A stretch of 64,000 nt of DNA from an uncultured Acidobacteriota bacterium (GCA_963832145.1 CAWHTA010000011.1:281451-345450), one strand, 5' to 3'. Shown: positions 29,673-45,385, numbered from the stretch's first letter. Notes: generated by a model not told the origin, from the sequence alone. A program made the numbers and translations.

Positions 29673-30101
29673 TCAGCCCTCGAGCTTCGCGTCCACGGTG
29701 ATCTTCGCGTTCAGCAGGCGCGAGATCGGGCAACCTTTCGACGCACCTTCGGCGGCCGCGCGGAACGCCTCGGCGGACGCGCCCGGGACCTTCCCGGCGA
29801 CTTCGAGGTGCGACCCCGTCACGGTCCAGCCGGTCCCCTCGACTTTCTCCATCGTCACCGTCGCGGTCGTCCGCAGGCTCTCGGCGACGAGGCTCGCCTT
29901 GCCGAGCTCGCCGGAGAGCGCCATCGTGAAGCAACCCGCGTGGGCCGCCGCGATCAGCTCCTCGGGGTTCGTTCCTTTTTCCCCTTCGAAACGGGTCGTG
30001 AACGAGTAGCGCGCGGACTGGAGCACGCCGCTCTCGGTCGAAACGAGGCCTTTTCCGGTCTTCAAATCCCCCTGCCACTCCGCGGACGCTTTGCGTTTCA
30101 T
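29673..30101 (-). CDS. OsmC/Ohr-family peroxiredoxin-like protein
   Basis: Start at MKRKASAEWQGDLK (142 aa). Conserved AHAGCF and GCPIS cysteines typical of OsmC. Confidence 0.85.
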   Translation of the reverse strand: MKRKASAEWQGDLKTGKGLVSTESGVLQSARYSFTTRFEGEKGTNPEELIAAAHAGCFTMALSGELGKASLVAESLRTTATVTMEKVEGTGWTVTGSHLEVAGKVPGASAEAFRAAAEGASKGCPISRLLNAKITVDAKLEG

Positions 30102-30176
30102 CTCGGTTCCTCCTCCTGGCGATCTCGATCTTTTCGCGAGCCGGTCGGCTAAACTAGTCCCGTTATAAGCAATTCC

Positions 30177-31724
30177 TTGTCCACTCCGCCCTACCGCCCG
30201 GTCGTGCCTTGTCTCGCGGGGCTCCTCGTGCTCGCCCTCTCGATGCACGGCTCCGCCTCGGGCCAGCAGACCGCGAACCTCGTTTTCCGCGGCGTGTCCC
30301 GGCCGGTCGCGATGTCGGGAAAAGACCTTTTCAGCGTCACGGACGCGGCGCTCGCGCTCGGGTTCCAGGTCTCGCGCGACACGACGACGGGCGTCCTCAC
30401 GCTCTCGGGGCATGGCCACACGGTGCTCGCCGGCCCGGGCACGACCCAGGTCCCTGTCGACTCACGGATCGTCGAGATCTCCCGCCCCGCGCGGGCGGTC
30501 GGCGGGGTGCTCTACGCGCCGGGCGAGTTCCTCGAAAAGGTGCTCTTCCCGCTCGCCGGCGCGACCGGAACGTGGGAGCCGGGCAACCGCGTCTGGTCGC
30601 TCATTCCCGCGGCCGGTGCCGCAGCGCCCGTCGACCCCGGCGCACCGCTCTCGATCGACGTTGCCGTCGTCCACGTCGATCCGACGACGCAGGTCGTCTT
30701 CCGCGAGTCCGGCCCGGCGGAGATCATGCCGCAGCTCGTCTCATCGGGCCTGCAGGTGCGCTGGACCAATCGGAAGGTGGTGGCTCCGTTCGCGGAGCGC
30801 CGCTTCAACGACCCGCTTGTCGCGGCGGTGCGTTTCGAAGGCGACACCGCGACAGTCGTCTTCCGCGATCCGAACTCGAGCGCGCACGCGTACCCGCTGA
30901 CCGATCCCGACCGGATCGTCGTCGAGGTCGGCCGGATCGTGGACGCGCCGGAAATCGAGCCGTCCGCGCCGGCCCCGGCGCCCTCCCCCGCGATCACGAT
31001 CGTCGTCGACCCGGGTCACGGCGGGGGCGAGACCGGGGCGATCGGGCCGGGAGGCCTGCAGGAGAAGGACGTCACGCTCCAGATCGCGCGACGGCTCGCC
31101 GCGGCGATCCCGCGGCTCCTGTCGAGCCGCGTCGTCCTCACCCGCGACTCCGACAGCGCGATCTCTCTCGACGACCGGACGTCGCTCGCCAACCACGAGA
31201 AGGCCAACCTCTTTCTCTCCCTCCACGCGAACTCGTCGAAGGCGGCGGGCGCGCACGGTTCGGAGACGTACTACCTCTCCCTCGAATCGTCGGACCGCCT
31301 CTCGCAGGAGGTCGCTCGCCGCGAGAATCAGCCGCTGCTCGGAACGGGCGCGCCCGCAGCGGAAGCCCCGAACCCGGACCTCGACTTCATCCTGTGGGAC
31401 CTCGCGCAGAGCGCCCACCTGAACGAGTCGAGCCGGCTCGCCGAAGCGATCCAGACGCACTTGAACGTCGTGTCGAAGACGGACAACCGCGGCATCAAGC
31501 AGGCGCCGTTCCGCGTCCTCTCGGGCGCGACGATGCCGGCCGTCCTCGTCGAGGTCGGCTTCATCTCGCACGCCGAAGAGGAGAAGCAGCTCAAGTCCGC
31601 GCCTTTTCAGCAGAGCGTCGCGGACGCGATCGCCCGGGCAGTCGCCGAGTTCTTCGGGAAGAGGCCGCCGGCCGCTCCGGGGACGGGGCCGACTCCGGCG
31701 ACGACCCCCGCGCCCGCGCGATGA
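30177..31724 (+). CDS. N-acetylmuramoyl-L-alanine amidase (Amidase_3) with N-terminal AMIN-like region
   Basis: 515 aa with a signal peptide. [21 protein letters not shown] and [10 protein letters not shown] motifs. Confidence 0.9.
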
Positions 31725-32320
31725 GCCGCCGCGCCGCGGCGATCCTCCTGCTCGTGATGGGCGCCGCCGTAGCCGGCCTTCTCTACCTCACTCGATCGCC
31801 GTCGTCGACCACCCGCTCCCGGCGCTCCCTTCCGTTCCTCCGGGTCACGCCCGCGGCTGGAGTTGCGCCGGCGCCCTCGGGAACCGTCGTTCCGGTCGAG
31901 ACGGTGCGGGTGACGCTCTTCTTTGCAGACGCCCGGCTGGGGAAGCTCCATCCGGAAGAGCGAGACGTCCCGAAGCCCTCCGGACCGGGCGCCTACCTGC
32001 GCACGCTCTTCGACGAGCTCGCTCGCGGGCCGTCGCGGCCCGGGTTCGTGCGGGTAATCCCCCCGCGTCTGCAGCTTCGAAACGGATTTCTTCTCGCCAA
32101 CGGGGAAGTGGTTCTCGACCTCGCTGTCGACGCGAGCCTCTCGTTCGGGTCCGCGGAGGAGCTCTCGATCGTCGCGACGCTCGTCGACACGGTCCTGCAG
32201 AACGTGGCGAACACGAGAAGGGTGCGAATCCTCGTCAACGGCGAGCCGGTGGAGTCGCTCGGCGGCCACGTGGACCTGACGCGTCCGCTCTCGTTCGTTC
32301 GAAGCGAGCTCGCTTCGTGA
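31721..32320 (+). CDS. GerMN-domain protein
   Basis: ATG at 31721 overlaps the amidase stop (ATGA). TM anchor. ..VTLFF.D......E.R.VP........L.EL..GP.. and ..[17 protein letters not shown] pattern. Confidence 0.7.
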
Positions 32321-33075
32321 CGCGGACCGTGCCGCGCCCCGACGGGCGCAAGGCCTCCGAGATGCGCCCGGTGACGATCACGACCGGGACGATCCCGCAC
32401 GCGGAGGGCTCGGCCCTGATCGAGCTCGGCGGCACGCGCGTCCTCTGCGTGGCTTCGGTGGAGGATCGGGTCCCGCAGTTCCTGAAAGGGAGCGGGAGCG
32501 GCTGGGTGACGGCCGAGTACGGAATGCTCCCTCGGGCGACGCACACCCGGTCGCCGAGAGAGGCCGCCGTCGGGCGGCAGGGCGGACGGACGCAGGAGAT
32601 CCAACGCCTGATCGGGCGGTCGCTCCGGAGCGTGACGGAGCTCCGCGGCCTCGGCGAGCGGACGATCACCCTCGACTGCGACGTCCTCCAGGCCGACGGC
32701 GGCACGCGCTGCGCCGCGATCACCGGCGCGTGCGTCGCGCTTTCGATGGCGCTCGCGAAGCTTTTGCGCGACCGCGCGATTCCTCGGTGGCCGCTCCGCG
32801 AAACTGTCGCCGCGATCTCGGTCGGCGTCTGCGCGGGACAGGGGGTCCTCGACCTCGCCTACGCGGAGGACTCCGAGGCGGACGTGGACTTCAACATCGT
32901 GGCAACGGAGTCGGGAGCGTTCGTCGAGATCCAGGGAACCGCCGAGCGCCGGCCGTTTTCCGAGGAGAGGTTGACCGAGCTCCTCGCCCTCGCGCGCAGG
33001 GGGTTGAAGAAGCTCGCCGCCGTCCAGGCCGATGCGCTCGAGCCCCACCTGCGAGGCCTTTCGACCGGAACCTGA
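32317..33075 (+). CDS. rph: Ribonuclease PH
   Basis: GTG at 32317 overlaps the upstream stop. RPDGR...E.RP......G....AEGS.L.E.G.T.VLC and [13 protein letters not shown] motifs. Confidence 0.95.
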
Positions 33076-33109
33076 GCGGTAGAATCCCCGCAGAAAAAGG
33101 GGGTTCCGC

Positions 33110-33607
33110 ATGAAAAAGAGACACCTTCCGATCAGCCTGCTCGTTGTCGCGATCGGTGCGGCCGGATTCCTCTCCGCGGACGAGGCGAAGACCACCGAAG
33201 CGAAAAAGAAGGCCGCGCACGTCATGTTCACGCCCGGCGACATCCAGTGGGTGGATGCACCTCCCACAATTCCTCCGGGCGCGAAGATGGCGCTGCTCGA
33301 AGGGGACCCGTCCAAGGCCGGTTACTTTGCGATGCGCCTGAAATTTCCGAGCGGCTACAAACTCATGCCGCACTGGCACCCGAACGTGGAGCGGGTCACG
33401 GTCATCTCCGGCACGCTCCACATGGGGATCGGCGACACGTTCTCGGAAACCGGCGCTCACGCCATGACCGCCGGGACGTACGGGTCGATGCCGCCGAAGG
33501 TGAACCACTACGCCTGGGCCGAGGGCGAGACGGAGGTCCAGATCACGACGCTCGGGCCGTGGAAGCTCGTGTACGTCAACCCGGCGGACGATCCGAGCAA
33601 GAAATAG
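33110..33607 (+). CDS. Secreted cupin-domain protein
   Basis: 165 aa with signal peptide MKKRHLPISLLVVAIGAAGF. Cupin motif ..MPHWHPNVERVTVISGTLHMG. Confidence 0.7.
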   Translation: MKKRHLPISLLVVAIGAAGFLSADEAKTTEAKKKAAHVMFTPGDIQWVDAPPTIPPGAKMALLEGDPSKAGYFAMRLKFPSGYKLMPHWHPNVERVTVISGTLHMGIGDTFSETGAHAMTAGTYGSMPPKVNHYAWAEGETEVQITTLGPWKLVYVNPADDPSKK

Positions 33608-33625
33608 CGGCGTCAGGCAGGCATT

Positions 33626-33659
33626 TTGGCGTTATTCAGCCGACACCAATAACGCCAAA
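33626..33659. terminator. AT-rich perfect hairpin between convergent genes (bidirectional terminator candidate)
   Basis: ttggcgttatt - 12 nt - aataacgccaa, an 11-bp perfect stem between the cupin stop and the ASCH stop. Confidence 0.6.
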
Positions 33660-34070
33660 CTACGCGCCTGAACCCACGACTTTCTTCCCCGGCTTGACGC
33701 GCGCGGCGGGAGTTCCTTTCACGAGCGACGCCGGCACGTAGAACGGGATCGAGTAGTGGCCGCGGCACGGGACCGCGACGCGGAACCGCTGCGGCTTCGC
33801 CCAGACGTAGCTCCACCCGTCGCCGTCCTTCACGCAGTCGTCCAGGCGCGCCAGTCCCAGGAGCTTTCCGCGCTCCGGCTCCGGCGCCCCTTTGGGGAGA
33901 TCGCTCCGGCGGAGCGTCTGCGAGGCGTGAATGAGGATCCAGCCCCGGAACCGCGACGGGCGCGAGCGGACGTCGCGCCGTTTCGTGCCGCGGACGATCT
34001 GGTCGGCGGCGGGCTGCCGGACGGAAATCGCGGGGAACCGGTCGGCGTCGGGGATTCGTGAACGAGCCAT
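33660..34070 (-). CDS. ASCH-domain protein
   Basis: Start at MARSRIPD (136 aa). ..AISVRQPAADQIVRGTK..D.RS.......WILIHAS.. pattern of ASCH / PUA-like fold proteins. Confidence 0.6.
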   Translation of the reverse strand: MARSRIPDADRFPAISVRQPAADQIVRGTKRRDVRSRPSRFRGWILIHASQTLRRSDLPKGAPEPERGKLLGLARLDDCVKDGDGWSYVWAKPQRFRVAVPCRGHYSIPFYVPASLVKGTPAARVKPGKKVVGSGA

Positions 34071-34179
34071 GTGTCGATTCAGTGTTGTCGCGACGGGTGG
34101 CGGCCAAGGTCGCGGCCTGACATAATCGCCGGTTTCCGCGGCCCGGGCCGCCACACTCACACGGAAGAAGGGCTTTCGA

Positions 34180-35202
34180 ATGAAAAGAATCGGCATTCTC
34201 TTCGGTCAGGAACGGACGTTCCCGCAGGCGCTCGTCGAGCGCATCAACCGCGAGGGCGGCGACGTCGTCGCGGAGCCCGCGCTCGTTGGCGGGATCCGGC
34301 TCGACACGCCGAAGAAGTACGACCTCATCCTCGACCGGATCAGCCAGGACATCCCGTTCTACCGGGCGGCGCTCAAGAAGCTCGCCTTCGACGGGACGAT
34401 CGTCGTCAACGACCCGTTCTGGTGGTCGGCGGACGACAAGTTCTTCAACAACGTCGTCGCGGAGAGCGTCGGGGTCGCGGTCCCGAAAACCGTGCTCCTC
34501 CCCTCCCACGAGCACCCGCCGGAGACGACCTCGGCCTCGATGAGCAACCTCGTCTTCCCGCTCGAGTGGGACGAGATCTTTTCCTACGTCGGCTTTCCCG
34601 CTTACTTCAAGCCCTACTCCGGCGGCGGGTGGAAGAACGTCTACCGGGTGTCGAACCCCGACGAGTTCTTCGCGGCGTATCGCGCCTCCGGCCAGCACGT
34701 CATGACCCTCCAGGAGGAGATCGTCTTCGAGGACTACTACCGCTGCTACGTGCTCGGCGCGAAGGAAGTCCTCCTGATGCCGTACGACCCGCGCCAGCCG
34801 CACGCGAACCGTTACGTGCGCGAGCCGAAGGCCATCGACCCGGCGCTCGAGGAAAGGCTGCGGGGCGACTGCCGCAAGCTGACCGGGGCGCTCGGCTATG
34901 ACTTCGACACCGTCGAGCTCGCCGTGAGGGACGGCATCCCCTACGCGATCGACTTCCTCAACCCGGCCCCGGATGCGGACGTCGCGTCGATCGGCCCCGA
35001 CAATTTCGCGTGGGTCGTCGAGCATTCCGCGAAGTGGCTCATCGAACGGGTCCAGGAAGGTCCCCGCCCGTCGCGGGCGTGGGAGTGGCAGAAGGTTCGC
35101 GACACCGTCCCGGCGGTGACCGCCCGGGCGGAGCCGAAAAAGGCCCGGCCCCGCCCCTCCCCGAAGCGTCCCCGGACGACGACGCCGGCCGGCGAGGTCT
35201 AA
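34180..35202 (+). CDS. Classical ATP-grasp ligase (RimK/GshB-like)
   Basis: 340 aa. Lys-loop YFKPYSGGGWKNVY lies before the Mg-site AIDFLNPAPD, the classical motif order. Basic Pro-rich tail. Confidence 0.75.
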   Translation: MKRIGILFGQERTFPQALVERINREGGDVVAEPALVGGIRLDTPKKYDLILDRISQDIPFYRAALKKLAFDGTIVVNDPFWWSADDKFFNNVVAESVGVAVPKTVLLPSHEHPPETTSASMSNLVFPLEWDEIFSYVGFPAYFKPYSGGGWKNVYRVSNPDEFFAAYRASGQHVMTLQEEIVFEDYYRCYVLGAKEVLLMPYDPRQPHANRYVREPKAIDPALEERLRGDCRKLTGALGYDFDTVELAVRDGIPYAIDFLNPAPDADVASIGPDNFAWVVEHSAKWLIERVQEGPRPSRAWEWQKVRDTVPAVTARAEPKKARPRPSPKRPRTTTPAGEV

Positions 35203-36347
35203 TGACGGTCCAACGCCCCGCCTTCACGCTCGGCGTCGAGGAGGAGTTCCAGATCATCGATCCGGAGACGCGCGAGCTCAAGTCGCACATCCAGGAGATG
35301 CTCGACGAGGGGAAGCGGGTCCTGAAGGAACGCGTGAAGCCGGAGATGCACCAGTCGGTCATGGAGATCGGCACCGGCATCTGCAACAACATCCAGGAGG
35401 TCCGGCGCGACGTCGCGGAGCTGCGGAGCGAGATCATCCGAATGGCCGCGAAGACGGGGATGCGCGTCGCCGCGGCGGGGACGCACCCTTTCTCGAACTG
35501 GGCGGACCAGCTGATCTACCCGGACGAGCGGTACGCCGCGATCGTCCAGGAGATGCAGCTCGTCGCGCGGGCCAACCTGATCTTCGGCCTCCACGTGCAC
35601 GTCGGCATCTCGGATCGCGCCCTCGCCCTCCAGATCATGAATGAGGCGCGCTACTTCCTGCCGCACCTGCTCGCGCTCTCGACGAGCTCTCCGTTCTGGC
35701 TCGGCCGCAACACGGGGTTGAAGAGCTATCGCACGAAGGTGTTCGAGAGGTTCCCGCGCACCAACATCCCCGAGGTCTTCGAGACGCCCGCGGAGTTCGA
35801 CGACTACGTCCGCGTCCTCGTCAAGACCAACTGCATCGACAACGGCCGGAAGATCTGGTGGGACGTGCGGCCGCACCCGTTCTTCGACACGATCGAGTTC
35901 CGCGTCTTCGACGTGCCGATGCGGCTCGACGAGACTGTCGCGCTCGCCGCGCTGACGCAGGCGATCTGCGTGAAGCTCTTCCAGCTCCGCGAGAAGAACC
36001 TGGGCTGGAGAACGTATCGCCGGGCGTTGCTGCTCGAGAACAAGTGGCGCGCGAGCCGCTACGGAATTGAAGGAAAGATGATCGATTTCGGAAGAGAGAT
36101 CGAGGTTCCCTTCCGCGACCTCGCGGAGGAAATGCTCCTTTTCGTGGACGACGTCGTCGACGAGCTCGGGAGCCGGAAAGAGGTCGAGTCGATTCGCTGG
36201 ATCCTCGACAACGGGAGCGGCGCCGACCGCCAGCTTGCTGTTTACCGCGAGAGCGGCGAAGATCTGAAGCGCGTGGTGGACTTCATCTGCGACGAGAGCG
36301 CCCACGGGATCGACTCCGCCACGGCCAGCGCGGCGGCATCCGGTTGA
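35202..36347 (+). CDS. Carboxylate-amine ligase, YbdK / glutamate-cysteine ligase family 2
   Basis: ATG at 35202 overlaps the upstream TAA. FTLGVEEEFQIIDPETREL and GTHPF, HVHVG motifs typical of GCS2. Confidence 0.85.
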   Translation: MTVQRPAFTLGVEEEFQIIDPETRELKSHIQEMLDEGKRVLKERVKPEMHQSVMEIGTGICNNIQEVRRDVAELRSEIIRMAAKTGMRVAAAGTHPFSNWADQLIYPDERYAAIVQEMQLVARANLIFGLHVHVGISDRALALQIMNEARYFLPHLLALSTSSPFWLGRNTGLKSYRTKVFERFPRTNIPEVFETPAEFDDYVRVLVKTNCIDNGRKIWWDVRPHPFFDTIEFRVFDVPMRLDETVALAALTQAICVKLFQLREKNLGWRTYRRALLLENKWRASRYGIEGKMIDFGREIEVPFRDLAEEMLLFVDDVVDELGSRKEVESIRWILDNGSGADRQLAVYRESGEDLKRVVDFICDESAHGIDSATASAAASG

Positions 36348-37381
36348 GCGGCCCCCTTCGAGCCGATCTCGCGGAGGCCGTCTCCGCGAACGGATACGAC
36401 CTCGCCCCGGGGGCGCGCAACGCGATCCGGACGTGCCTGCGGGTCACGCCCGATGAGCACGTCGCGATCATCACCGATCGTGAGACCGAGCGCGTGGCCG
36501 AGAGCCTCGCCGCGGAAATCCGCGAGGTGGGCGCGCCGTACGAGCTCCACGTGCTCGAGGACTACGGCGATCGGCCCATGCTCGATCTCCCCCAGCCCGT
36601 TCGGGACGCGCTCGAGCGCTCCGATGTCTCGATCTACGCCGGTCAGCCGCGCGAGGGCGAGCTCGCCTCCCGCCGCGAGATGACCGCCATCGTCAATCGG
36701 CGCGAGATGCGCCACGCCCACATGGTCTCCATCACCCCGCGGATCATGGCCGAGGGGATGCGGGCGGACTTCGACGCCGTGGACGCGATCTCGACGCGGG
36801 TCCGGGACCGCGCCGCGAAAGCGCAGCGCATCCGTGCGCGCTCCCGCGCCGGCAGTGACCTCGAGGCAACCTTCGACCCCTCCGTCCTCTGGCTGAAGAC
36901 GAGCGGCCTCATCACCGCGGCGAAGTGGGCCAACCTTCCGGGCGGCGAGGTCCTGACCGCGCCGGCGCGCGTGGACGGTGTATACGTGGTGGACGGAGTC
37001 CTCGGTGACTATCTCTGCGCTCGCTACGGCGATCTCGAGGAAACCCCGCTCACCGTCTGGATCGAGAACAGCCGCGTCGCCGACGCGAAGTGCGCGCGGA
37101 CCGACGTCCGGGACGACTTCCTCGCCTACACGCGCACGGAGGAGAACTCGGACCGCGTCGGCGAGTTCGCGATGGGAACGAACATCGCCGTCCACTCCAT
37201 CATCGGAAACATCCTCCAGGACGAGAAGCTCCCCGGACTCCACCTCGCTTTCGGACACACCTACGCCGAGCACACCGGCGCGTCCTGGAGCTGCCGCACC
37301 CACCTCGACATCGTGGGCCGACACTTCGACGTCTGGTTCGACGACGAGCAGGTGATGGCCGACGGAAAGTTTTTGATTTAA
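36344..37381 (+). CDS. Aminopeptidase, peptidase family M29 (AmpS/aminopeptidase T-like)
   Basis: TTG at 36344 overlaps the upstream TGA. ..NLPGGEVLTAP..VDG..VVDG.., GEFAMGTN and NILQDEKLPGLHLAFG motifs. Confidence 0.75.
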   Translation: MSGPLRADLAEAVSANGYDLAPGARNAIRTCLRVTPDEHVAIITDRETERVAESLAAEIREVGAPYELHVLEDYGDRPMLDLPQPVRDALERSDVSIYAGQPREGELASRREMTAIVNRREMRHAHMVSITPRIMAEGMRADFDAVDAISTRVRDRAAKAQRIRARSRAGSDLEATFDPSVLWLKTSGLITAAKWANLPGGEVLTAPARVDGVYVVDGVLGDYLCARYGDLEETPLTVWIENSRVADAKCARTDVRDDFLAYTRTEENSDRVGEFAMGTNIAVHSIIGNILQDEKLPGLHLAFGHTYAEHTGASWSCRTHLDIVGRHFDVWFDDEQVMADGKFLI

Positions 37382-37387
37382 GGATCC

Positions 37388-37425
37388 CACCCTCTCCCCC
37401 ATGGGGAGAGGGCAGGGTGAGGGGC
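37388..37425 (-). repeat. REP family 1 copy (inverted orientation)
   Basis: ccaccctctcccccatggggagagggcagggtgaggggc, immediately after the M29 stop. Confidence 0.8.
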
Positions 37426-37443
37426 TCGAACGCCACCGAATCA

Positions 37444-38637
37444 ATGATCCCCGACCTCCGCCGCGCCTACAACGACAGCTTCACCGAAGAGAAGTACGCC
37501 GGGTACAAGCGGAGCCTCGAGGAAGAGGCCGGCTCCCGGATCGAGTTCCACCTCTGCGAGACGCCGGTCTTCCTCCCCCCGGACCTCCGCGACAAGATGG
37601 TGCGCGCCGCGACGGAGATCTGGTCGGAGCTTTCCAGACCAGAGATCCTTCGGGCGTCGCAGGACGCCGTGCCGCCCGCGCTCGACGTCCCCGGCTCGGG
37701 CGACCAACCCACGTTCGCGCAGGCGGACTTCGCCGTCACCCGGGATTCGAACGGCCTTCTCACGCCGAAGCTGATCGAGCTGCAGGCGTTCGCGTCGCTC
37801 TACGCATTCCAGCTCTTTCAGAGCCGGGGGCTCAAGCGAATCACCCCGGGCGGCGACGAACTCGACTTCTACCTGTCGGGCCTCGACGACGACAGCTATG
37901 TCCGCACGGTCGGTGAGGCGATCCTCGGCGGGTTCCCCGCCGAAAACGTCGTCCTGATGGACATCGATCCACCCACCCAGAAAACCTACGTGGACTTCGC
38001 GTGCACCGAGAAGCTCTGGGGAGTCCGGCCGGTGTCGGCGACCGACATCGAGAAACGCGGCCGGGAGCTCTGGTATCGCCGGGACGGAAAGCCGACCCGG
38101 ATCCTGCGGATCTACAACCGCCTGATCTTCGACGAGCTGTCCGCGAAGGGGATCACGCTGCCCATCGACTTCACGCAGCCGCTCGACGTGTCATGGGCCG
38201 GGCACCCGAACTGGTACTTCCGCTGGAGCAAGCATTCGCTGCCTTCCCTCTCCCACCCCGCGGCGCCCGAGGCGCGGCTCCTCTCGGACTTCGACGGTCC
38301 GCCATCGGACCTCGACAACTGGGTCCTGAAGCCGCTCTTCTCCTTCGCGGGCTCGGGAGTGAAGGTCGACGTCACGAGGAAAGACTTCGAGGCCGTCCCC
38401 GAGGCGGACCGCGCCCACACCGTCCTGATGCGGAAGGTCCAGTACGCGCCCGTCGTCGAGACCGTGGACGGAAACCGGTCGAAGGTCGAAGTGCGGATCA
38501 TGTTCGTGTGGCGGGACGGGAAGCCGTTCCCGGTGACGACGCTCGCGCGCCTCTCTCAGGGAAAGATGATGGGCGTCGCCTTCAACAAGGACAAGACGTG
38601 GGTGGGCTCGAGCGGTTGTCTCTGGCCTGGGGTCTGA
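37444..38637 (+). CDS. Uncharacterised ATP-grasp-like protein, probably circularly permuted
   Basis: 397 aa. The Mg-site-like LIELQAF (about residue 105) precedes the Lys-loop-like WVLKPLFSFAGSGVKV (about residue 295), the reverse of the classical order. No family assigned with certainty. Confidence 0.55.
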   Translation: MIPDLRRAYNDSFTEEKYAGYKRSLEEEAGSRIEFHLCETPVFLPPDLRDKMVRAATEIWSELSRPEILRASQDAVPPALDVPGSGDQPTFAQADFAVTRDSNGLLTPKLIELQAFASLYAFQLFQSRGLKRITPGGDELDFYLSGLDDDSYVRTVGEAILGGFPAENVVLMDIDPPTQKTYVDFACTEKLWGVRPVSATDIEKRGRELWYRRDGKPTRILRIYNRLIFDELSAKGITLPIDFTQPLDVSWAGHPNWYFRWSKHSLPSLSHPAAPEARLLSDFDGPPSDLDNWVLKPLFSFAGSGVKVDVTRKDFEAVPEADRAHTVLMRKVQYAPVVETVDGNRSKVEVRIMFVWRDGKPFPVTTLARLSQGKMMGVAFNKDKTWVGSSGCLWPGV

Positions 38638-38756
38638 CCCCCCCAGCCGCGAAGCTGGGCAAGATCGACCGCGAGGGGGTCAGATCCCTCCCCGCATGAG
38701 CTGTCGTGGATGTCTTCGGCGGACTCGAAAATCACCGGCTGGGGGGGTCAGACCCC
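38629..38756. repeat. Cluster of three GGGGTCAGACCCC-type palindromes (REP family 3)
   Basis: ggggtctgaccccccc (38629-38644), gggggtcagatccctcccc (about 38675-38693) and gggggggtcagacccc (38741-38756). Related copies at 2920-2933, 17011-17104 and 19886-19898. Confidence 0.75.
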
Positions 38757-39188
38757 AGCCGCAGCGAGCCACCCCATGAGCTGGTCGTCGATGTCTTCCG
38801 CGGACTCGACGACCACGGAGTGGCCGAACCGCTCCGGACCGAGCCGCTCGAAGTGGACGATGCGCGGGTCGACGATGCGTTTGGCGCCGTAGAAGCCGAC
38901 GCGGAGATACGTCCCGCGGACCGTGACCGCGCCGAGATGCCGGCCGGAGGTCAGGTTGATCGAGGTCTTCACCGGGTCCACCTTCACCGGACCGATCTTC
39001 CGCAGCTTCGAGACGAGCGCGTCGAACACTTCGCGCAGCTGCGGGTCGCGCCCCTTGAAGTGCTCGTCGAGCCCCCGTGTCGCGCACGAATGCCACTGGT
39101 TCGGCTTGACGAACTCGCGGCGGCAGGCGGGGCACCGCCAGAGCTGGCCGCGGCGCGCGGGTTTGCGGGCGGTCTCGCGGGAGGTCAC
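38748..39188 (-). CDS. DUF5655-like small protein with N-terminal CxxC...HxC zinc knuckle
   Basis: In-frame GTG at 39188 overlaps the esterase stop (GTGA). ..WRCPACRREF....WHSC.....HF.G.....E.FD.L...L...GPV...P.KT.I.L pattern. Confidence 0.6.
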   Translation of the reverse strand: MTSRETARKPARRGQLWRCPACRREFVKPNQWHSCATRGLDEHFKGRDPQLREVFDALVSKLRKIGPVKVDPVKTSINLTSGRHLGAVTVRGTYLRVGFYGAKRIVDPRIVHFERLGPERFGHSVVVESAEDIDDQLMGWLAAAGV

Positions 39189-39917
39189 GGCACGTAGCTC
39201 CGGATCTGGATCCTCCACCAGGGCCAGTCGTGCCCGTACGGGTCGTCCCACACGTGGCCGCGGTGCGGAATCCCCTTGTCCCGCAGGATGCGGATCATGT
39301 CTTCCGTCCCCTTCAGGATGTTGTCCTGCGCGCCCGTCACGATCGCGATGTCCATCTTCGACAGCCGCTCGACCCAGCCGGCGTCCATGTTCGGGACGTA
39401 CGCCGTCGGACAGTGAAAGTAGGCCCGTTCGTCCCAGTAGCCGTCGAGGAACGAGTGGATGTCGTACTTCCCGGAGAACCCGACGACCTTGTCCACCACG
39501 TCGGGATGGCGGAAGCCGAAGTTGACGGCGTGGTACGCCCCGAAGGACGCGCCGAGCGTGGCGATCTTCGCCGACGCCTTCGCCTTCGCGCGCATCCACG
39601 GGACGACCTCGCGGTAGAGGTACGTGTCGTACTGGTCGTGCCGCACGAGCCGGTCCGCCGGATGGCGCGATCTGCGCGTAGAGGCTCTCCCCGTCGATCC
39701 CGTCCACGCACGCGACCTGGATGTCGCCCGCCTCGATGCGGTCCCGGACGGCGCCGATCAAGCCGAAATCCTCGTTCTCGAAGAAGTGTCCGAAGGAAGT
39801 CGGGAACCAGATCATCGGCTTGCCCGCGCCGCCGAACCAGAGCAGGTCCATGCGGCGCCCGAGGGAGGGCGAGTACCAGGTGACGAATTCGCGGTTCATG
39901 CGTGTTGTCCACCGCAT
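39185..39917 (-). pseudogene. Esterase-family (alpha/beta hydrolase, putative esterase) protein, frameshift about 39650-39690
   Basis: N-terminus ..VTWYSPSLGRRMDLLWFGGAGKPMIWFPTSFGHFFENEDFGLIG...ACVDGIDGESLYA is in the frame of ORF 38748-39917. The continuation HPADRLVRHDQYDTYLYREVVPWM...GASFGAYHA.. is in ORF 39185-39646. Confidence 0.75.
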
Positions 39918-39963
39918 CGGCGCGAATGTCGCTGCCGACAGCGTGGGATAATTCCTCCTCTTC

Positions 39964-40038
39964 CGGGGCGTAGCGCAGCGGTAGCGTATCTGCTTTGGGA
40001 GCAGATGGTCGCCGGTTCGATCCCGGCCGCCCCGACCA
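39964..40038 (+). tRNA. tRNA-Pro (anticodon TGG), CCA encoded
   Basis: Manual cloverleaf: acceptor cggggcg/cgccccg, D arm gcgc-agcggta-gcgt, anticodon arm tctgc-tttggga-gcaga, T arm gccgg-ttcgatc-ccggc. Confidence 0.9.
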
Positions 40039-40051
40039 CCGCTAAGCGGGC

Positions 40052-41698
40052 CTACCCTCCTCCAACTCTTTTCGAGTCGGGTCCGACGACTTGATTCCGG
40101 CCGCGGTGCTTGGCCTCGTAGAGCGCGGCGTCGGCGGCTTCCAGCCAGCTCGACAGGTCGGGCTCTTCGCCGCTCATGGCGACCCCCGCCGAGAAGGTGA
40201 CTCGAAAGCTCGCGGCGTCCAACCCCCGATGCTCGATCGCCGTGAAATCCGCGAGCAGCCTTTCCACGAGACTCACGGCGCCTTCGGCCGTCAGATCCTC
40301 CAGAAGGATTCCGAACTCTTCACCACCCAGTCGCCCGATCGAATCCGTCTGACGCAGCCGGGATCGCAGAAGTCCCGCAAGCGCGGTCAGCACCCGGTCT
40401 CCAACCGGATGCCCCCAGGTGTCGTTGACCTTCTTGAAGTGATCGAGGTCGAGAACGACGAGGGCCGCCGGGAGCCTGTCGGGCCGCCTCAGCTGCCGGA
40501 GGTGCACCGCCCGGACGCGCTCGAGGAACGGCGTGTGCGCCAGCAGACGTGTCAGGCCGTCGCGCTCCACCAGATCCTTCAGGAAGCGCGCGCGTTCGAT
40601 TCGGGCGGCCACCGTCGACAGCAGGAGGCCGGGTGAAATCGGCTTCGCGAGATGGTCGTCACCGCCCGCCCGAACGGCTTCGATGCGAGACTGGAGTTGC
40701 TGCTCGGTGGTCAGGAAGAGAACCGGGAGGGTCGCGTGGCGCTCGTCCTGCCGGAGGATTCGGGCAAGGTCGTAGCCCGAGACGCCTCCCGGCAGGAGAA
40801 CGTCCATCAGCACGAGGTCGGGGTGGAACGCAGCCAACGCCTCCTCGAAGTCGCGAGCACCGGCAGCGGTATGCACCTCGTAACCCGCCGATTCGAGGAC
40901 GGCTCGCACGAGACCTGCCTGATCGGGATCATCCTCGACCGAAAGAACCCGTGGGGCCGCGGCGACGGCGCGCTCCAGAAGCTGCTGGAGCCGGCGTCCC
41001 AGGACCTCCGGGTTCACCGTTTTTTCGAATAGCCCGTCCGCTCCGCAGTGAATGGCCTCGACCCGGTCGAGCACGTCGGCCGAGCCTGCGACGAGAAGCA
41101 CGGCGATCGAGCTTGCCCCCGGCGTCGCCCGCATTCGCTCGACGAGCGCGAAGCCCGTTCCGTCCGGAAGATCCGCGTCAACGATCGCGACGGAAGGCAA
41201 CCGCGCCTCGACCGCAGCCAGCGCCTCGGCGCCAGACGCCACGGCGCGCACCGACAGACCGGCGCGCTCGACAACGCCGGCCAGAATCGCAGAGAGCGTC
41301 GGATCCGCCTCGACGACGAGTCCCTCGCCGCGCGGCGGTGAGGTCGAAAGCGACTCGGGGGCCCGCGTCACCCGCCGCGCGCCGAGCTGCGATCGGAGCC
41401 CGTTGAGCAGGTCGCGCCAGACCGCCAGGTCCGACTCCCCCGGCTCCCTCCCGTCGGCGGCGACAGCGTCGCAATGCCGTTCCCCATCCTGTCCGAGCAT
41501 CGTGACCTTCGGAAAGCCGTACGAGCCGCCGAGACCGGAAAAGCCATGGAACGCGAGGCGCAGGTCGGTCAGCGCTTCCGAGTCGCCGGGGACCCTGCTC
41601 AGTCGTTGGAGATCGGCTTCGATACGATCGAGCCGCGCCGCCGATCCGCTCAAAAACTGCTCGCGCAGAGCCTCGAGGGTTTTCTCCCAGTCCGCCAT
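40052..41698 (-). CDS. Hpt-REC-REC-GGDEF diguanylate cyclase
   Basis: 548 aa. N-terminal Hpt (..LAFHGFSGLGGSYGF). Two receiver domains (..IVDADLPDG.., ..LMDVLLPG..). C-terminal GGDEF domain with RLGGEEFG. Confidence 0.9.
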   Translation of the reverse strand: MADWEKTLEALREQFLSGSAARLDRIEADLQRLSRVPGDSEALTDLRLAFHGFSGLGGSYGFPKVTMLGQDGERHCDAVAADGREPGESDLAVWRDLLNGLRSQLGARRVTRAPESLSTSPPRGEGLVVEADPTLSAILAGVVERAGLSVRAVASGAEALAAVEARLPSVAIVDADLPDGTGFALVERMRATPGASSIAVLLVAGSADVLDRVEAIHCGADGLFEKTVNPEVLGRRLQQLLERAVAAAPRVLSVEDDPDQAGLVRAVLESAGYEVHTAAGARDFEEALAAFHPDLVLMDVLLPGGVSGYDLARILRQDERHATLPVLFLTTEQQLQSRIEAVRAGGDDHLAKPISPGLLLSTVAARIERARFLKDLVERDGLTRLLAHTPFLERVRAVHLRQLRRPDRLPAALVVLDLDHFKKVNDTWGHPVGDRVLTALAGLLRSRLRQTDSIGRLGGEEFGILLEDLTAEGAVSLVERLLADFTAIEHRGLDAASFRVTFSAGVAMSGEEPDLSSWLEAADAALYEAKHRGRNQVVGPDSKRVGGG

Positions 41699-41707
41699 GA
41701 GTCCTCG

Positions 41708-42094
41708 TCAGCTCGTCCGCTCGTAGATCGCCCGCACCATCGCGGCGAGCGTCATCGCGTCGAATGGCTTCGGGATCGCTTCGACCACTCCGAGATCCCG
41801 GTAATGCTCCAATTCATTCGCCTGTACCTTCGCCGTCATGAAGACGACGGGAGTCGAGCGCGTGGCTTCGAGCCCGCGCAGGCCCTGGAGCGTGGCGGGA
41901 CCGTCCATGCCGGGCATCATCACGTCGAGCAGGATGAGCTGCGGCCGAAAATTCGCGGCCGCTTCGACCGCTTCCGCCCCCGAGGCACAACTGCGGACCG
42001 TGAGGCCGCCGACCCCCTCCAGCGCGAAAGTCCCGATCGCTCGGATGTCGGGATCATCCTCGACGTAAAGAACCCGATCGAGCACGTCGCTCAT
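41708..42094 (-). CDS. Single-domain CheY-like response regulator
   Basis: 128 aa. VLYVEDDPD...LILLDVMMPGMDG...PVVFMTAK...KPF. Confidence 0.9.
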   Translation of the reverse strand: MSDVLDRVLYVEDDPDIRAIGTFALEGVGGLTVRSCASGAEAVEAAANFRPQLILLDVMMPGMDGPATLQGLRGLEATRSTPVVFMTAKVQANELEHYRDLGVVEAIPKPFDAMTLAAMVRAIYERTS

Positions 42095-44736: not shown

Positions 44737-44740
44737 GCTC

Positions 44741-45385
44741 TCAGCCCAGATGCTTTCGGAGCAACTGCTCCAGTGATGGGAAATCCAGCGGCTTCGCCAG
44801 GTAATCGTCCGCAAGGAATTCCTTGTAGGCCTCCGCCTTGTACCGCGAGGCCGTATAGACCGAAGTCATGAGCACAACCTTCGTCGCCGAAGTTTGCGGG
44901 TCCGTCTTGATCCGGCGGCACATTTCGCGCCCGTCGAGCCCGGGCATGAAGACGTCCGCGAGGACGAGCTCCGGCTTGTACGCGACCGTCAGCGTCCATC
45001 CCTCCTCACCGTTGCTTGCGACGATTGCGTGGTAGCCAAGGCGCGTGATCCCGGCGATTGCAATTCTCACAATCTCTTTATCGTCGTCGACCACGAGAAC
45101 GAGCGGACGCTGAACGGAATCCACTTCGGCGTTCGCGGGAAGCTCCTCCGCGTGCCGGTGCTCGGCCGCGGCTCGGTCCCAGAGGTCTTGCGGCGCTCCC
45201 TCCCAGAGTTTCTGCTTGAAGGACTGAGGCGCTCTGCAGAAGCAGATTCCGCAATGCGGGCAGACGAGAGATCTCCGGCTGGTCAGGCAGGCGCACCACG
45301 CCGCCGGAAGCGCATCGAACGGTTGGCGGCAGCCGAAGCAGGCGACGATGTACGTCGCGGACGGCCCGCCCGGCAAGGATTGCAT
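44741..45385 (-). CDS. Response-regulator receiver with N-terminal 8-Cys zinc-finger-like domain
   Basis: 214 aa. CxxC-x11-CxC-x8-CxxC-x2-CxC (ACFGC..WCAC..VCPHCGICFC), then REC (LVLVVDDDKE...LADVFMPGLDG...VVLMTS...KP). Confidence 0.8.
   Translation of the reverse strand: MQSLPGGPSATYIVACFGCRQPFDALPAAWCACLTSRRSLVCPHCGICFCRAPQSFKQKLWEGAPQDLWDRAAAEHRHAEELPANAEVDSVQRPLVLVVDDDKEIVRIAIAGITRLGYHAIVASNGEEGWTLTVAYKPELVLADVFMPGLDGREMCRRIKTDPQTSATKVVLMTSVYTASRYKAEAYKEFLADDYLAKPLDFPSLEQLLRKHLG

What the first reader, a model, noticed from the sequence alone, without database searches (positions are those of the whole stretch)
34180..38637. Translationally coupled cluster of three distinct ATP-dependent amide ligases plus an M29 aminopeptidase
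Four co-directional genes: a classical ATP-grasp (34180-35202), a YbdK/GCS2 carboxylate-amine ligase (35202-36347), an M29 aminopeptidase (36344-37381) and a second, apparently permuted ATP-grasp-like protein (37444-38637). The first three overlap by 1-4 nt (TAATG, TTGA). The fourth is separated only by a REP insertion. ATP-grasp and GCS2 enzymes both form amide bonds through acyl-phosphate intermediates. Three such ligases with an N-terminal exopeptidase suggests synthesis, trimming or recycling of a small non-ribosomal peptide, a gamma-glutamyl-type thiol, or a peptide tag on a protein. I know of no characterised pathway with exactly this gene set.
Basis: partly seen in the sequence, partly recalled or inferred. 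Interest (0 to 1): 0.65.

Follow-up and report, generated by a model that had tools for sequence, protein, structure and literature searches.

The report
Conserved amide-ligase gene cassette, product unknown
Three different ATP-dependent amide-bond-forming enzymes sit with a peptidase and a nearby esterase in a gene cassette that recurs almost unchanged in several soil-bacterial phyla, so it probably makes a small non-ribosomal peptide that nobody has yet identified.

Summary
Four co-directional genes lie at 34180-38637:
- A is a Ddl/RimK-type ATP-grasp, recognised by fold only.
- B is a YbdK/GCS2 carboxylate-amine ligase.
- C is a short M29-like metallopeptidase.
- D is an uncatalogued ligase whose model matches eukaryotic glutathione synthetase and glutathionylspermidine-synthetase-type enzymes.

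The TAATG and TTGA overlaps are real. The C-D spacer holds a genome-specific REP-like hairpin.

The cluster is not accidental. In 60 informative genomes that carry D, 50 have B upstream, always on the same strand and in the same order. These genomes span Acidobacteriota, Verrucomicrobiota, Bacteroidota, Ignavibacteriota and Chlorobiota.

39 of the 60 genomes carry all five genes. In this window the esterase lies downstream on the opposite strand and is frameshifted.

The peptidase slot varies. It holds M29 in Acidobacteriota and Verrucomicrobiota, a class-I glutamine-amidotransferase-like protein in Bacteroidota and Ignavibacteriota, or nothing.

The most likely function is NRPS-independent assembly and turnover of a small gamma-glutamyl-type peptide or peptide-amine conjugate. 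The product is unknown. No paper I could search describes it. The closest analogue is a computationally predicted neighbourhood that I recall only from memory.

The parts
34180..35202 (+). Gene A: 340-aa classical ATP-grasp ligase of Ddl/RimK/LysX type, with a K/R/P-rich disordered C-terminal tail
   Evidence: ORF. No Pfam hit. TIGR00768 rimK_fam scores 19 bits against a cut-off of 143. AF2 model pLDDT 74.9. Foldseek top hits are Ddl, VanA, RimK and LysX at E~1e-13 to 1e-11. K144, G148-G150, E246, D258 and N261 are invariant across phyla. Basic tail.
35202..36347 (+). Gene B: 381-aa YbdK/GCS2 carboxylate-amine ligase
   Evidence: Pfam GCS2 9e-62. NCBIfam NF010039 532.7 bits, above the cut-off of 371. 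PDB YbdK 1r8g 1.7e-46. The GhExE signature is present as GVEEEF (the signature is defined in PMC2588565).
36344..37381 (+). Gene C: 345-aa short M29-like metallopeptidase; TTG start not proven
   Evidence: Pfam Peptidase_M29 45.9 bits, above 27, covering residues 159-310. The family profile hits AmpS 1zjc at 6.5e-6, with E202, E274 and H300 aligned to AmpS acidic/His positions. H320 and D322 are invariant. There is also a weak NicX hit.
37390..37424 (.). REP-like hairpin (10-bp stem, 3-nt loop) plus GGGTGAGGGG tail in the C-D spacer
   Evidence: Five copies in the window and none in 980 kb of related loci.
37444..38637 (+). Gene D: 397-aa ligase of an uncatalogued family with a eukaryotic-glutathione-synthetase / GspS-like (permuted ATP-grasp) fold
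   Evidence: No Pfam, NCBIfam or PDB sequence hit. More than 6900 homologs, named 'hypothetical' wherever a name is given. 1190 clusters at 50% identity. AF2 pLDDT 85.6, pTM 0.88. Foldseek hits: human and yeast GS 3.5e-13, 3n6x, Cp1B, YjfC, trypanothione synthetase. The family profile hits YgiC at 5e-4. hhalign against YgiC gives 91% over the ATP-loop region.
38627..38758 (.). Pair of 23-nt perfect inverted repeats (second REP-like family, GGGGTCWGACCCC) spanning the D stop codon and the end of the convergent gene; a likely bidirectional terminator region
39185..39899 (-). Fifth cassette member: PF00756 / COG4947-type esterase (alpha/beta hydrolase), here convergent to A-D and carrying a +1 frameshift near 39672
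   Evidence: tblastn finds it in two frames in the window, but as a single intact 235-237-aa gene in L001-L008 and in the full-length relatives among the 120 best hits. It lies upstream of A and co-directional in 37 loci, and downstream and convergent in 8 Thermoanaerobaculia-like loci. The GASFG nucleophile motif and the GHDW histidine are present.

Best explanation
The region is one copy of a widely conserved, chromosomally encoded cassette. Its order is esterase, A, B, a variable slot (M29 peptidase or GATase1-like protein), then D. The cassette builds and turns over a small peptide or peptide-amine conjugate without ribosomes or NRPS.

Inferred mechanism:
1. B, a YbdK/GCS2 ligase, activates a carboxylate as an acyl-phosphate and joins it to an amine. 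In characterised relatives that carboxylate is the gamma-carboxyl of glutamate.
2. D has the fold of eukaryotic glutathione synthetase and of peptide-polyamine ligases. It extends the free carboxylate of that product with a second amine, either an amino acid or a polyamine.
3. A, a Ddl/RimK-type ATP-grasp, adds a further residue.
4. The hydrolases trim, recycle or de-conjugate the product. These are the M29 metallopeptidase or, in other phyla, a Cys-His-Glu amidotransferase-like amidase, plus the alpha/beta-hydrolase esterase.

Shown here: the enzyme families and folds, the conserved catalytic motifs, the gene order, and the cross-phylum co-conservation. Inferred: the order of steps, the gamma-glutamyl chemistry and the substrates.
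For: Co-conservation:
- Of 60 loci with at least 4.5 kb upstream of D, 50 carry B and 39 carry all five genes. Every member is on D's strand and in the same order. The loci come from Acidobacteriota, Verrucomicrobiota, Bacteroidota, Ignavibacteriota and Chlorobiota.
- Clustering of all ORFs in the 80 loci found no further cross-phylum partner.

Tight coupling:
- A/B overlap by 1 nt and B/C by 4 nt in the window.
- In minimal A-B-D cassettes the B and D matches lie about 6-9 nt apart (L021, L050, L060, L063, L078).

Enzymology:
- B passes the curated GCS2/YbdK thresholds and has the GhExE motif.
- D is colinear with eukaryotic GS over about 485 columns (TM 0.61). It aligns to classical Ddl over only about 155 columns.
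- D is weakly related in sequence to YgiC, annotated peptide--spermidine ligase.
- A has the Ddl/RimK/LysX fold.
- C keeps the M29 metal ligands.
- The esterase has a GxSxG motif and a conserved His.

Other:
- Identities to the window proteins are high across phyla: median 56% for A, 61% for B, 54% for C and 45% for D. They co-vary (r 0.88-0.94 for most pairs, 0.51 for A-D).
- D has no plasmid copies, and none of the cassette proteins matches a defence model.
Against: - No product, substrate or phenotype is known, and nothing here identifies a single substrate.
- D occurs without A, B or C within 7 kb in 9 of 60 loci, so D can have a role outside the cassette.
- The peptidase slot is not constant, so M29 is not essential to the chemistry.
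- The GATase1-like protein could be a true ammonia donor rather than a hydrolase. In that case it would not be equivalent to M29.
- A's K/R-rich tail would also fit a macromolecular, acidic substrate.
- The esterase is frameshifted in this window, so the cassette may be incomplete in this organism, unless that is an assembly error.
Confidence: 0.5

Rival explanations
1. The cassette makes a glutathione-like or glutathionyl-amine-like low-molecular-weight thiol. B would act as the gamma-Glu-Cys ligase. D or A would act as the glutathione-synthetase step, and the remaining ligase would conjugate an amine. The esterase would serve as an S-acyl-thiol hydrolase, and M29 or the GATase1-like protein as the degradative amidase.
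For: - Every family has a counterpart in glutathione or trypanothione metabolism: GCS2, the eukaryotic GS and trypanothione-synthetase fold, and the COG0189 'glutathione synthase/RimK-type' name that JGI gives to A.
- PF00756 is also matched by a solved S-formylglutathione hydrolase, weakly.
- Occasional neighbours are a second PF00756 esterase fused to a DinB/mycothiol-S-transferase-like domain (fusion shown only in L037), with weaker esterase matches in L020, L042, L064 and L080, a DinB gene in L084, and what looks by eye like an M19 dipeptidase in L035 (no NCBIfam hit).
- In 7 solo loci D sits directly upstream of ruvX. This parallels gshB-yqgE-yqgF(ruvX) in E. coli.
Against: - No residue-level evidence for cysteine specificity.
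- The phyla that carry the cassette are predicted or shown to use bacillithiol or N-methyl-bacillithiol, and in that study's gene survey gshA-gshB were found only in other groups (PMC6282198).
- All the family-level links are to very broad families.
- Three ligases are one more than glutathione needs.
Confidence: 0.18
2. The ligases modify a protein or ribosomal peptide, for example by adding residues to an acidic C-terminus as RimK does on ribosomal protein S6 or LysX does on LysW. The peptidases would remove or trim the tag.
For: - A's nearest structural relatives include RimK, LysX/ArgX and the microviridin macrocyclase MdnB.
- A carries a K/R-rich tail in most Acidobacteriota and some Bacteroidota.
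- GCS2 is the closest relative of the Pup ligase PafA (PMC2588565).
Against: - No conserved small ORF, carrier protein or candidate target gene travels with the cassette.
- A scores far below the RimK family cut-off (19 against 143 bits).
- D's nearest relatives all act on small molecules.
- The tail is absent in Ignavibacteriota and Verrucomicrobiota.
Confidence: 0.15
3. The cassette is catabolic or a salvage route. An amine or xenobiotic would be gamma-glutamylated by B, as in the Puu and Ipu pathways (recalled from general knowledge), then processed and released by the amidase and esterase.
For: - A GCS2-type ligase next to a GATase1-like amidase resembles the PuuA/PuuD logic (general knowledge).
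- A related ligase family is linked to GAT-like thiol peptidases (PMC2588565).
- An esterase is present.
Against: - No oxidoreductase, transporter or regulator is conserved with the cassette.
- Three ATP-consuming ligases are hard to justify for catabolism.
- Acidobacteriota have M29 instead of the amidase.
Confidence: 0.1
4. The genes are functionally unrelated neighbours that happen to lie together.
For: D can occur alone. Insertions of unrelated genes occur between members in some loci.
Against: The same order and strand recur in 50 of 60 informative loci across at least four phyla, with overlapping or near-abutting reading frames.
Confidence: 0.02

Closest known systems
Glutathione, glutathionylspermidine and trypanothione biosynthesis (GshA/GCS, GshB or eukaryotic GS, GspS/TryS; E. 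coli YgiC/YjfC peptide-spermidine ligases)
   Same: It uses a GCS-type carboxylate-amine ligase plus ATP-grasp ligases that extend a peptide carboxylate. D shares the fold of eukaryotic GS, TryS and YjfC and has a weak sequence link to YgiC. A dedicated hydrolase accompanies the ligases, as the amidase domain does in GspS (general knowledge).
   Different: D fails every curated family threshold. There are three ligases rather than two. No substrate is known. The carrier phyla are thought to use bacillithiol. An esterase and a variable peptidase slot are part of the unit.
Predicted small-peptide synthesis neighbourhoods of Iyer, Abhiman, Burroughs and Aravind 2009 (Mol Biosyst 5:1636), especially the one behind Pfam PF14403 CP_ATPgrasp_2. 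Recalled from memory; the paper could not be opened.
   Same: As I recall it, the neighbourhood combines a circularly permuted ATP-grasp with a GCS2-like ligase, an alpha/beta-hydrolase peptidase, an amidohydrolase and a metallopeptidase. Its predicted role is small-peptide biosynthesis. This is the same logic and nearly the same cast.
   Different: D is at best a remote relative of PF14403. Six of 52 family members give sub-threshold hits and the window protein gives none. Here the amidohydrolase is GAT-I-like, not GAT-II, and the metallopeptidase is M29, not M20. An additional classical ATP-grasp (A) is present. I could not verify whether this exact cassette is listed in that paper.
RimK / ribosomal protein S6 glutamylation
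   Same: A has the RimK/Ddl/LysX fold, and JGI names it 'glutathione synthase/RimK-type ligase-like'.
   Different: A scores 19 bits against the 143-bit RimK family cut-off. hhalign against E. coli RimK is not significant. No S6 or other target gene is conserved nearby.
NRPS-independent amide-ligase pathways for natural products, such as fungal E-64 (Cp1B ATP-grasp followed by an amide-bond synthetase; PMC12568646)
   Same: A small molecule is built by successive stand-alone ATP-dependent amide ligations. Cp1B is among D's top structural matches.
   Different: Those are lineage-restricted secondary-metabolite clusters. This cassette is chromosomal and highly conserved (43-64% identity across phyla), and D has no plasmid copies.

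Membership tests
ATP-grasp superfamily (gene A) | Three-domain ATP-grasp fold | tested here: met
   The AF2 model (pLDDT 74.9) matches Ddl, VanA, RimK, LysX and MdnB at Foldseek E 1e-13 to 1e-11, TM 0.55-0.72.
ATP-grasp superfamily (gene A) | ATP-binding Lys, Gly-rich loop and acidic/Asn Mg ligands conserved | tested here: met
   K144, G148-G149-G150, E246, D258 and N261 are invariant in a cross-phylum alignment. Their assignment to catalytic roles is by motif position, not by superposition.
RimK family (TIGR00768 / Pfam RimK) | Score above the curated family cut-off | tested here: not met
   TIGR00768 scores 19.1 bits against a cut-off of 143.4. No Pfam hit at E<=10. hhalign probability is 1.9% against E. 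coli RimK and 6% against GshB.
GCS2 / YbdK carboxylate-amine ligase (gene B) | Curated HMM thresholds | tested here: met
   PF04107 scores 209.5 bits (cut-off 21) over the full length. NF010039 scores 532.7 bits (cut-off 371). YbdK structures hit at 1e-46 to 1e-49.
GCS2 / YbdK carboxylate-amine ligase (gene B) | GhExE Mg/ATP signature | tested here: met
   Residues 11-15 read GVEEE. The signature is as defined in PMC2588565.
GCS2 / YbdK carboxylate-amine ligase (gene B) | Gamma-glutamyl:cysteine ligase activity | not testable with these tools
   Needs an enzyme assay. B is below the cut-offs of all NCBIfam 'glutamate--cysteine ligase' equivalogs and passes only the generic carboxylate-amine ligase model.
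Peptidase M29 (gene C) | Pfam gathering threshold | tested here: met
   45.9 bits against 27, but only residues 159-310 match profile positions 203-353 of 406.
Peptidase M29 (gene C) | Metal-binding Glu/Glu/His/His/Asp set | tested here: inconclusive
   In the profile alignment to AmpS 1zjc, E202 (GGE), E274 (GEF) and H300 (H-I/L-AFG) align with the AmpS Glu, Glu and His positions. H320 and D322 are invariant but lie outside the aligned stretch. The ligand identities in AmpS are recalled from memory.
Peptidase M29 (gene C) | Full-length (~410 aa) aminopeptidase T/S architecture | tested here: not met
   C is 345 aa and its N-terminal 150 residues do not match significantly. The family profile also hits the M29-fold dioxygenase NicX (7cn3, E 1.7e-3; faint NicX).
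Eukaryotic-type glutathione synthetase / GspS-like permuted ATP-grasp (gene D) | Fold and domain order colinear with eukaryotic GS | tested here: met
   Foldseek hits 8fbz, 1m0w and 2hgs at E 3.5e-13 to 2e-11 over about 475-500 columns, TMq 0.57-0.61. Classical Ddl aligns over only about 155 columns at E 0.12. The E112-x-Q114 motif precedes K296 and the SFAGSG loop.
Eukaryotic-type glutathione synthetase / GspS-like permuted ATP-grasp (gene D) | Membership of a curated family (GSP_synth, CP_ATPgrasp_1/2) | tested here: not met
   The window protein gives no hit at E<=10. 17 of 52 relatives hit GSP_synth and 6 of 52 hit CP_ATPgrasp_2, in each case at a best E-value of about 1e-4. The GSP_synth hits examined scored 14 bits against a cut-off of 29.3.
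Canonical glutathione pathway | Substrates Glu, Cys and Gly; product GSH | not testable with these tools
   Needs biochemistry. Literature places bacillithiol, not GSH, in these phyla (PMC6282198).
REP (repetitive extragenic palindrome) | Palindromic, intergenic and repeated in the genome | tested here: met
   A 10-bp stem with a 3-nt loop. Five copies in 64 kb, each with the same tail, and none in related genomes.
Anti-phage defence systems (PADLOC) | Any member matching a defence-system model | tested here: not met
   No hit for A, B, C, D or the esterase.

The most novel reading that the evidence does not exclude
The cassette produces a so far unrecognised, widely distributed low-molecular-weight gamma-glutamyl peptide or peptide-amine conjugate. 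It may be a glutathione- or glutathionylspermidine-like thiol. The carrier phyla would be Acidobacteriota, Verrucomicrobiota, Bacteroidota and Ignavibacteriota. A and D would then define two new substrate-specific amide-ligase families absent from Pfam and NCBIfam.
Probability: 0.25. Interest if true: 0.8.

Novelty: new variant of a known kind. Interest (0 to 1): 0.55.

Why it matters
- If the cassette makes a defined metabolite, that compound would be a common but unknown constituent of some of the most abundant soil phyla. D alone has more than 6900 homologs and was found in at least 597 species-representative genomes.
- Two of the three ligases (A and D) are not covered by any curated family, so solving their substrates would annotate thousands of 'hypothetical' genes.
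- The interchangeable hydrolase slot (M29 or GATase1-like) and the ever-present esterase are natural handles for working out the chemistry.
- The question is directly testable by expressing five genes from a culturable carrier.

Tried and rejected
- **Riboswitch or leader RNA upstream of the operon.** An Rfam E-value scan of 30000-42000 found only tRNA-Pro.
- **Promoter and terminator scan.** No sigma-70-like site. The terminator-like hits were no more frequent than in shuffles.
- **Defence system.** No PADLOC hits.
- **Mobile or plasmid-borne trait.** D has no homolog in 72,556 plasmids.
- **Sequence-level assignment of A to GshB or RimK.** hhalign was not significant.
- **Fusion partners of D as functional hints.**
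  - One fusion to a sodium:solute symporter.
  - Several N-terminal extensions that look like signal peptides and match no Pfam family and none of the cassette proteins tested.
  - These gave no interpretable link.
- **Extra conserved neighbours.**
  - All-against-all clustering of 2365 ORFs from 80 loci found only lineage-specific synteny, namely ruvX-mltG next to solo D, and a 900-aa protein and a kinase that each recur in 17-18 loci.
  - The window's DUF5655 gene and 137-aa upstream gene are absent from all 80 loci.
- **Literature.**
  - Six full-text searches found no description of the cassette.
  - Iyer et al. 2009 could not be opened.
  - One COG2170 mention in a sigma-54 regulon paper was uninformative.


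Full report
**1. What is in the sequence**

The window has about 66-70% G+C around the finding, with no compositional break. Four co-directional ORFs lie at the stated coordinates: A at 34180-35202, B at 35202-36347, C at 36344-37381 and D at 37444-38637.

- A's TAA stop shares one base with B's ATG.
- B's TGA stop overlaps the TTG that is the first possible start of C.
- Homologs of C from the closest genomes align from residues 2-14, so a start near 36344 is plausible but not proven.
- Homologs of D all begin at MIPxLR. This fixes its start at 37444 rather than in the longer upstream ORF.

The 62-nt C-D spacer contains a perfect 10-bp hairpin with a 3-nt loop, followed by GGGTGAGGGG. This element occurs five times in the 64-kb window and never in 980 kb of related loci.

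A second repeat family (GGGGTCWGACCCC, four copies) forms a 23-nt perfect inverted repeat around the D stop codon.

**2. What the four proteins are**

*B* is an unambiguous YbdK/GCS2 carboxylate-amine ligase.
- Pfam GCS2 scores 209.5 bits.
- NCBIfam NF010039 'carboxylate-amine ligase' scores 532.7 bits, above its cut-off of 371.
- All 'glutamate--cysteine ligase' equivalogs score below their cut-offs.
- The YbdK crystal structures hit at 1e-46 or better.
- The GhExE signature is present as GVEEE.

*C* passes the M29 gathering score, but only over its C-terminal half.
- A profile of 16 orthologs hits S. aureus AmpS at 6.5e-6.
- In that alignment E202, E274 and H300 sit opposite the AmpS Glu, Glu and His positions.
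- H320 and D322 are invariant.
- The profile also touches the M29-fold dioxygenase NicX (E 1.7e-3).
- C is 345 aa rather than about 410.
- I therefore call it a short M29-like metallohydrolase, most likely a peptidase.

*A* matches no Pfam model even at E<=10 and is far below the RimK family cut-off.
- Its AlphaFold2 model (pLDDT 74.9) is a classical ATP-grasp.
- The nearest structures are D-Ala-D-Ala ligases, VanA, RimK, LysX/ArgX and MdnB.
- The ATP-loop and Mg-ligand positions are invariant across phyla.
- hhalign against E. coli GshB or RimK is not significant, so A belongs to no curated family.

*D* matches nothing in Pfam, NCBIfam or PDB by sequence.
- It has more than 6900 homologs at 90% clustering. 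Wherever a source names one of the best hits, the name is 'hypothetical protein'.
- It has 1190 clusters at 50% identity.
- Its model (pLDDT 85.6, pTM 0.88) aligns colinearly over about 480 columns with human, yeast and plant glutathione synthetases.
- It also aligns with the 'putative glutathionylspermidine synthase' 3n6x, the E-64 ligase Cp1B, E. coli YjfC and trypanothione synthetase.
- Classical ATP-grasps align over only about 155 columns.
- A family profile reaches YgiC at 5e-4, and hhalign gives 91% over the ATP-loop region.
- 17 of 52 diverse relatives give weak GSP_synth hits, which scored 14 bits against a 29.3 cut-off where examined. Six of 52 give weak CP_ATPgrasp_2 hits.
- YgiC and YjfC are peptide-spermidine ligases (RefSeq product name; Pederick et al. 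2023 as cited in PMC12568646).

**3. Is the cluster conserved?**

I scanned one genome per species with a D alignment. It returned 597 confirmed matches, and the best 80 loci were kept. I then mapped the window proteins onto these loci by tblastn.

Among the 60 loci with at least 4.5 kb upstream of D:

| Pattern | Loci |
|---|---|
| B present | 50 |
| Esterase-A-B-C-D | 30 |
| Esterase-A-B-GATase1-like-D | 9 |
| Subsets that keep the order | 12 |
| D alone | 9 |

- No member is ever on the opposite strand to D.
- The carriers are Acidobacteriota (Thermoanaerobaculia, Terriglobia), Verrucomicrobiota, Bacteroidota (including the isolate Hymenobacter sp. YC55), Ignavibacteriota and a Chlorobiota MAG.
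- Identities to the window proteins stay high across phyla: medians of 56% for A, 61% for B, 54% for C and 45% for D. They co-vary.

**4.

- **A fifth member.**
  - A ~237-aa alpha/beta hydrolase belongs to the cassette. It matches Pfam Esterase PF00756, and JGI names it 'esterase/lipase superfamily enzyme'.
  - It lies directly upstream of A and co-directional in 37 loci.
  - In the eight Thermoanaerobaculia-like loci, in the close relative L084 and in this window, it has moved to just downstream of D on the opposite strand.
  - In the window it spans 39185-39899 and carries a +1 frameshift near 39672.
  - The full-length relatives among its 120 best matches are intact.
- **The slot between B and D is variable.**
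  - Acidobacteriota and Verrucomicrobiota have M29.
  - Bacteroidota and Ignavibacteriota have a ~280-aa class-I glutamine-amidotransferase-like protein with Cys and His-Pro-Glu motifs.
  - Several Melioribacter and Thermoanaerobaculia loci have nothing there, and B then abuts D within about 6-9 nt.
- **D can stand alone.** In seven such loci it sits immediately upstream of ruvX-mltG.
- **No other partner.** Clustering of all ORFs from the 80 loci revealed no further cross-phylum partner, small ORF, transporter or regulator.

**5. How it most likely works**

Three enzymes that each form an amide through an acyl-phosphate are kept together and translationally coupled, along with one or two hydrolases. 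This is the signature of NRPS-independent assembly and turnover of a small peptide-like molecule.

- By analogy with characterised relatives, B would create a gamma-glutamyl-type isopeptide.
- D would extend the resulting free carboxylate with an amino acid or polyamine.
- A would add one more residue.
- The M29 or GATase1-like protein and the esterase would trim, recycle or de-conjugate the product.

Only the folds, motifs and gene linkage are shown. The step order and the substrates are inferred. I put 0.5 on this general reading.

A more specific version is a glutathione- or glutathionyl-amine-like thiol. Several weak links make it attractive:
- Every family has a counterpart in glutathione or trypanothione metabolism.
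- A second esterase, fused to a DinB/mycothiol-S-transferase-like domain in L037, neighbours the cassette in a few loci.
- The D-ruvX context parallels gshB-yqgE-yqgF in E. coli.

Against it, none of these links is specific, and the carrier phyla are reported to use bacillithiol derivatives (PMC6282198). I give it 0.18.

The other readings score lower:
- Protein tagging (0.15) draws only on A's resemblance to RimK/LysX and on its K/R-rich tail. No target or carrier gene is conserved.
- A gamma-glutamylation-based catabolic route (0.1) lacks oxidoreductases and transporters.
- Chance juxtaposition is excluded.

**6. Comparison with what is known**

I found no paper describing this cassette.

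The closest described thing is a class of predicted 'small-peptide synthesis' neighbourhoods from Iyer et al. 2009. This rests on my memory of the Pfam PF14403 (CP_ATPgrasp_2) annotation and could not be verified, because the paper is not held. As I recall it, a permuted ATP-grasp is linked there to a GCS2-like ligase, an alpha/beta-hydrolase peptidase, a GAT-II amidohydrolase and an M20 peptidase.

The present cassette follows the same logic with a different cast. It has a D family outside PF14403, a GAT-I-like protein or M29 in place of GAT-II and M20, and an extra classical ATP-grasp. I therefore rate it a new variant of a known, and so far only predicted, kind.

**7. Verdict**

Interest is moderate to high (0.55). 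The cassette is a widespread, well-defined and experimentally tractable five-gene unit, and two of its ligase families are uncatalogued. Its general logic is not unprecedented, and nothing here pins down the chemistry.

Noticed in passing
window 39185-39899 (-): The esterase that belongs to the cassette has a +1 frameshift near 39672 (...ESLYAQ / SRHPADRL...). The full-length relatives among its 120 best matches are intact at 235-237 aa. This is either a pseudogene or an assembly error.
   Followed up: partly
window 38748-39188 (-): A 146-aa gene starts with a GTG that overlaps the esterase stop codon (GTGA). Its counterpart in the same position in the close relative L084 carries Pfam DUF5655. 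It is absent from all 80 genome loci, so it is a lineage-specific partner of the relocated esterase.
   Followed up: partly
window 19068, 19113, 37391, 48818, 52905 and 2921, 19886, 38629, 38744: Two genome-specific REP-like families. One is CCTCTCCCC-N3-GGGGAGAGG with a GGGTGAGGGG tail. The other is GGGGTCWGACCCC. Neither occurs in 980 kb of related loci. Two copies of the second type form a 23-nt perfect inverted repeat around the D stop codon.
   Followed up: partly
L009, L011, L012, L013, L015, L017, L019 (about 8.0-9.8 kb in the 15-kb loci): In genomes where D is not next to A, B and C, it lies immediately upstream of ruvX(yqgF)-mltG, with overlapping stop and start in L012. In E. coli gshB-yqgE-yqgF are adjacent (L082). 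This parallel context may be coincidence.
   Followed up: partly
window 35080-35199 (C-terminus of A); same region in L002-L007, L037, L068, L071, L077: A ends in a short disordered K/R(/P)-rich tail in most Acidobacteriota and some Bacteroidota (median 6 K/R against 1 D/E in 16 aa). The tail is absent in Ignavibacteriota and Verrucomicrobiota. Its function is unknown.
   Followed up: partly
proteins P0124, P0125, P0141, P0151, P0167 (distant D homologs): One D homolog is fused to a sodium:solute symporter. Several others carry a 150-190-aa N-terminal extension that begins with a signal-peptide-like hydrophobic segment, which is odd for an ATP-dependent ligase. The extensions match no Pfam family and none of the cassette proteins tested.
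   Followed up: partly
L037 915-2432 (-); also L020, L042, L064, L080 upstream of the cassette esterase: A second PF00756 esterase lies divergently next to the cassette in five loci from three phyla. In Hymenobacter (L037) it is fused to a DinB_2 / mycothiol-S-transferase-like domain. L042 matches the esterase part at 46% identity, and the other three match only at 27-28%.
   Followed up: no
L035 1253-2419 (+): In one Terriglobia locus a 388-aa gene is inserted between the esterase and A. By eye it resembles a renal/M19-type membrane dipeptidase, but it has no NCBIfam hit.
   Followed up: no
window 39964-40038 (+): tRNA-Pro(TGG) lies just beyond the esterase. It is followed on the minus strand by a response-regulator/GGDEF gene (40052-41698) and a large hybrid histidine kinase (42091-44814); both functions are judged from their translations only.
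   Followed up: no
L008 2300-4507 and 7001-8189: In this uncultured Acidobacteriota MAG, B, C and D each appear as several frame-shifted pieces. This suggests indel errors in that assembly, and it shows that apparent frameshifts in such MAGs need caution.
   Followed up: no
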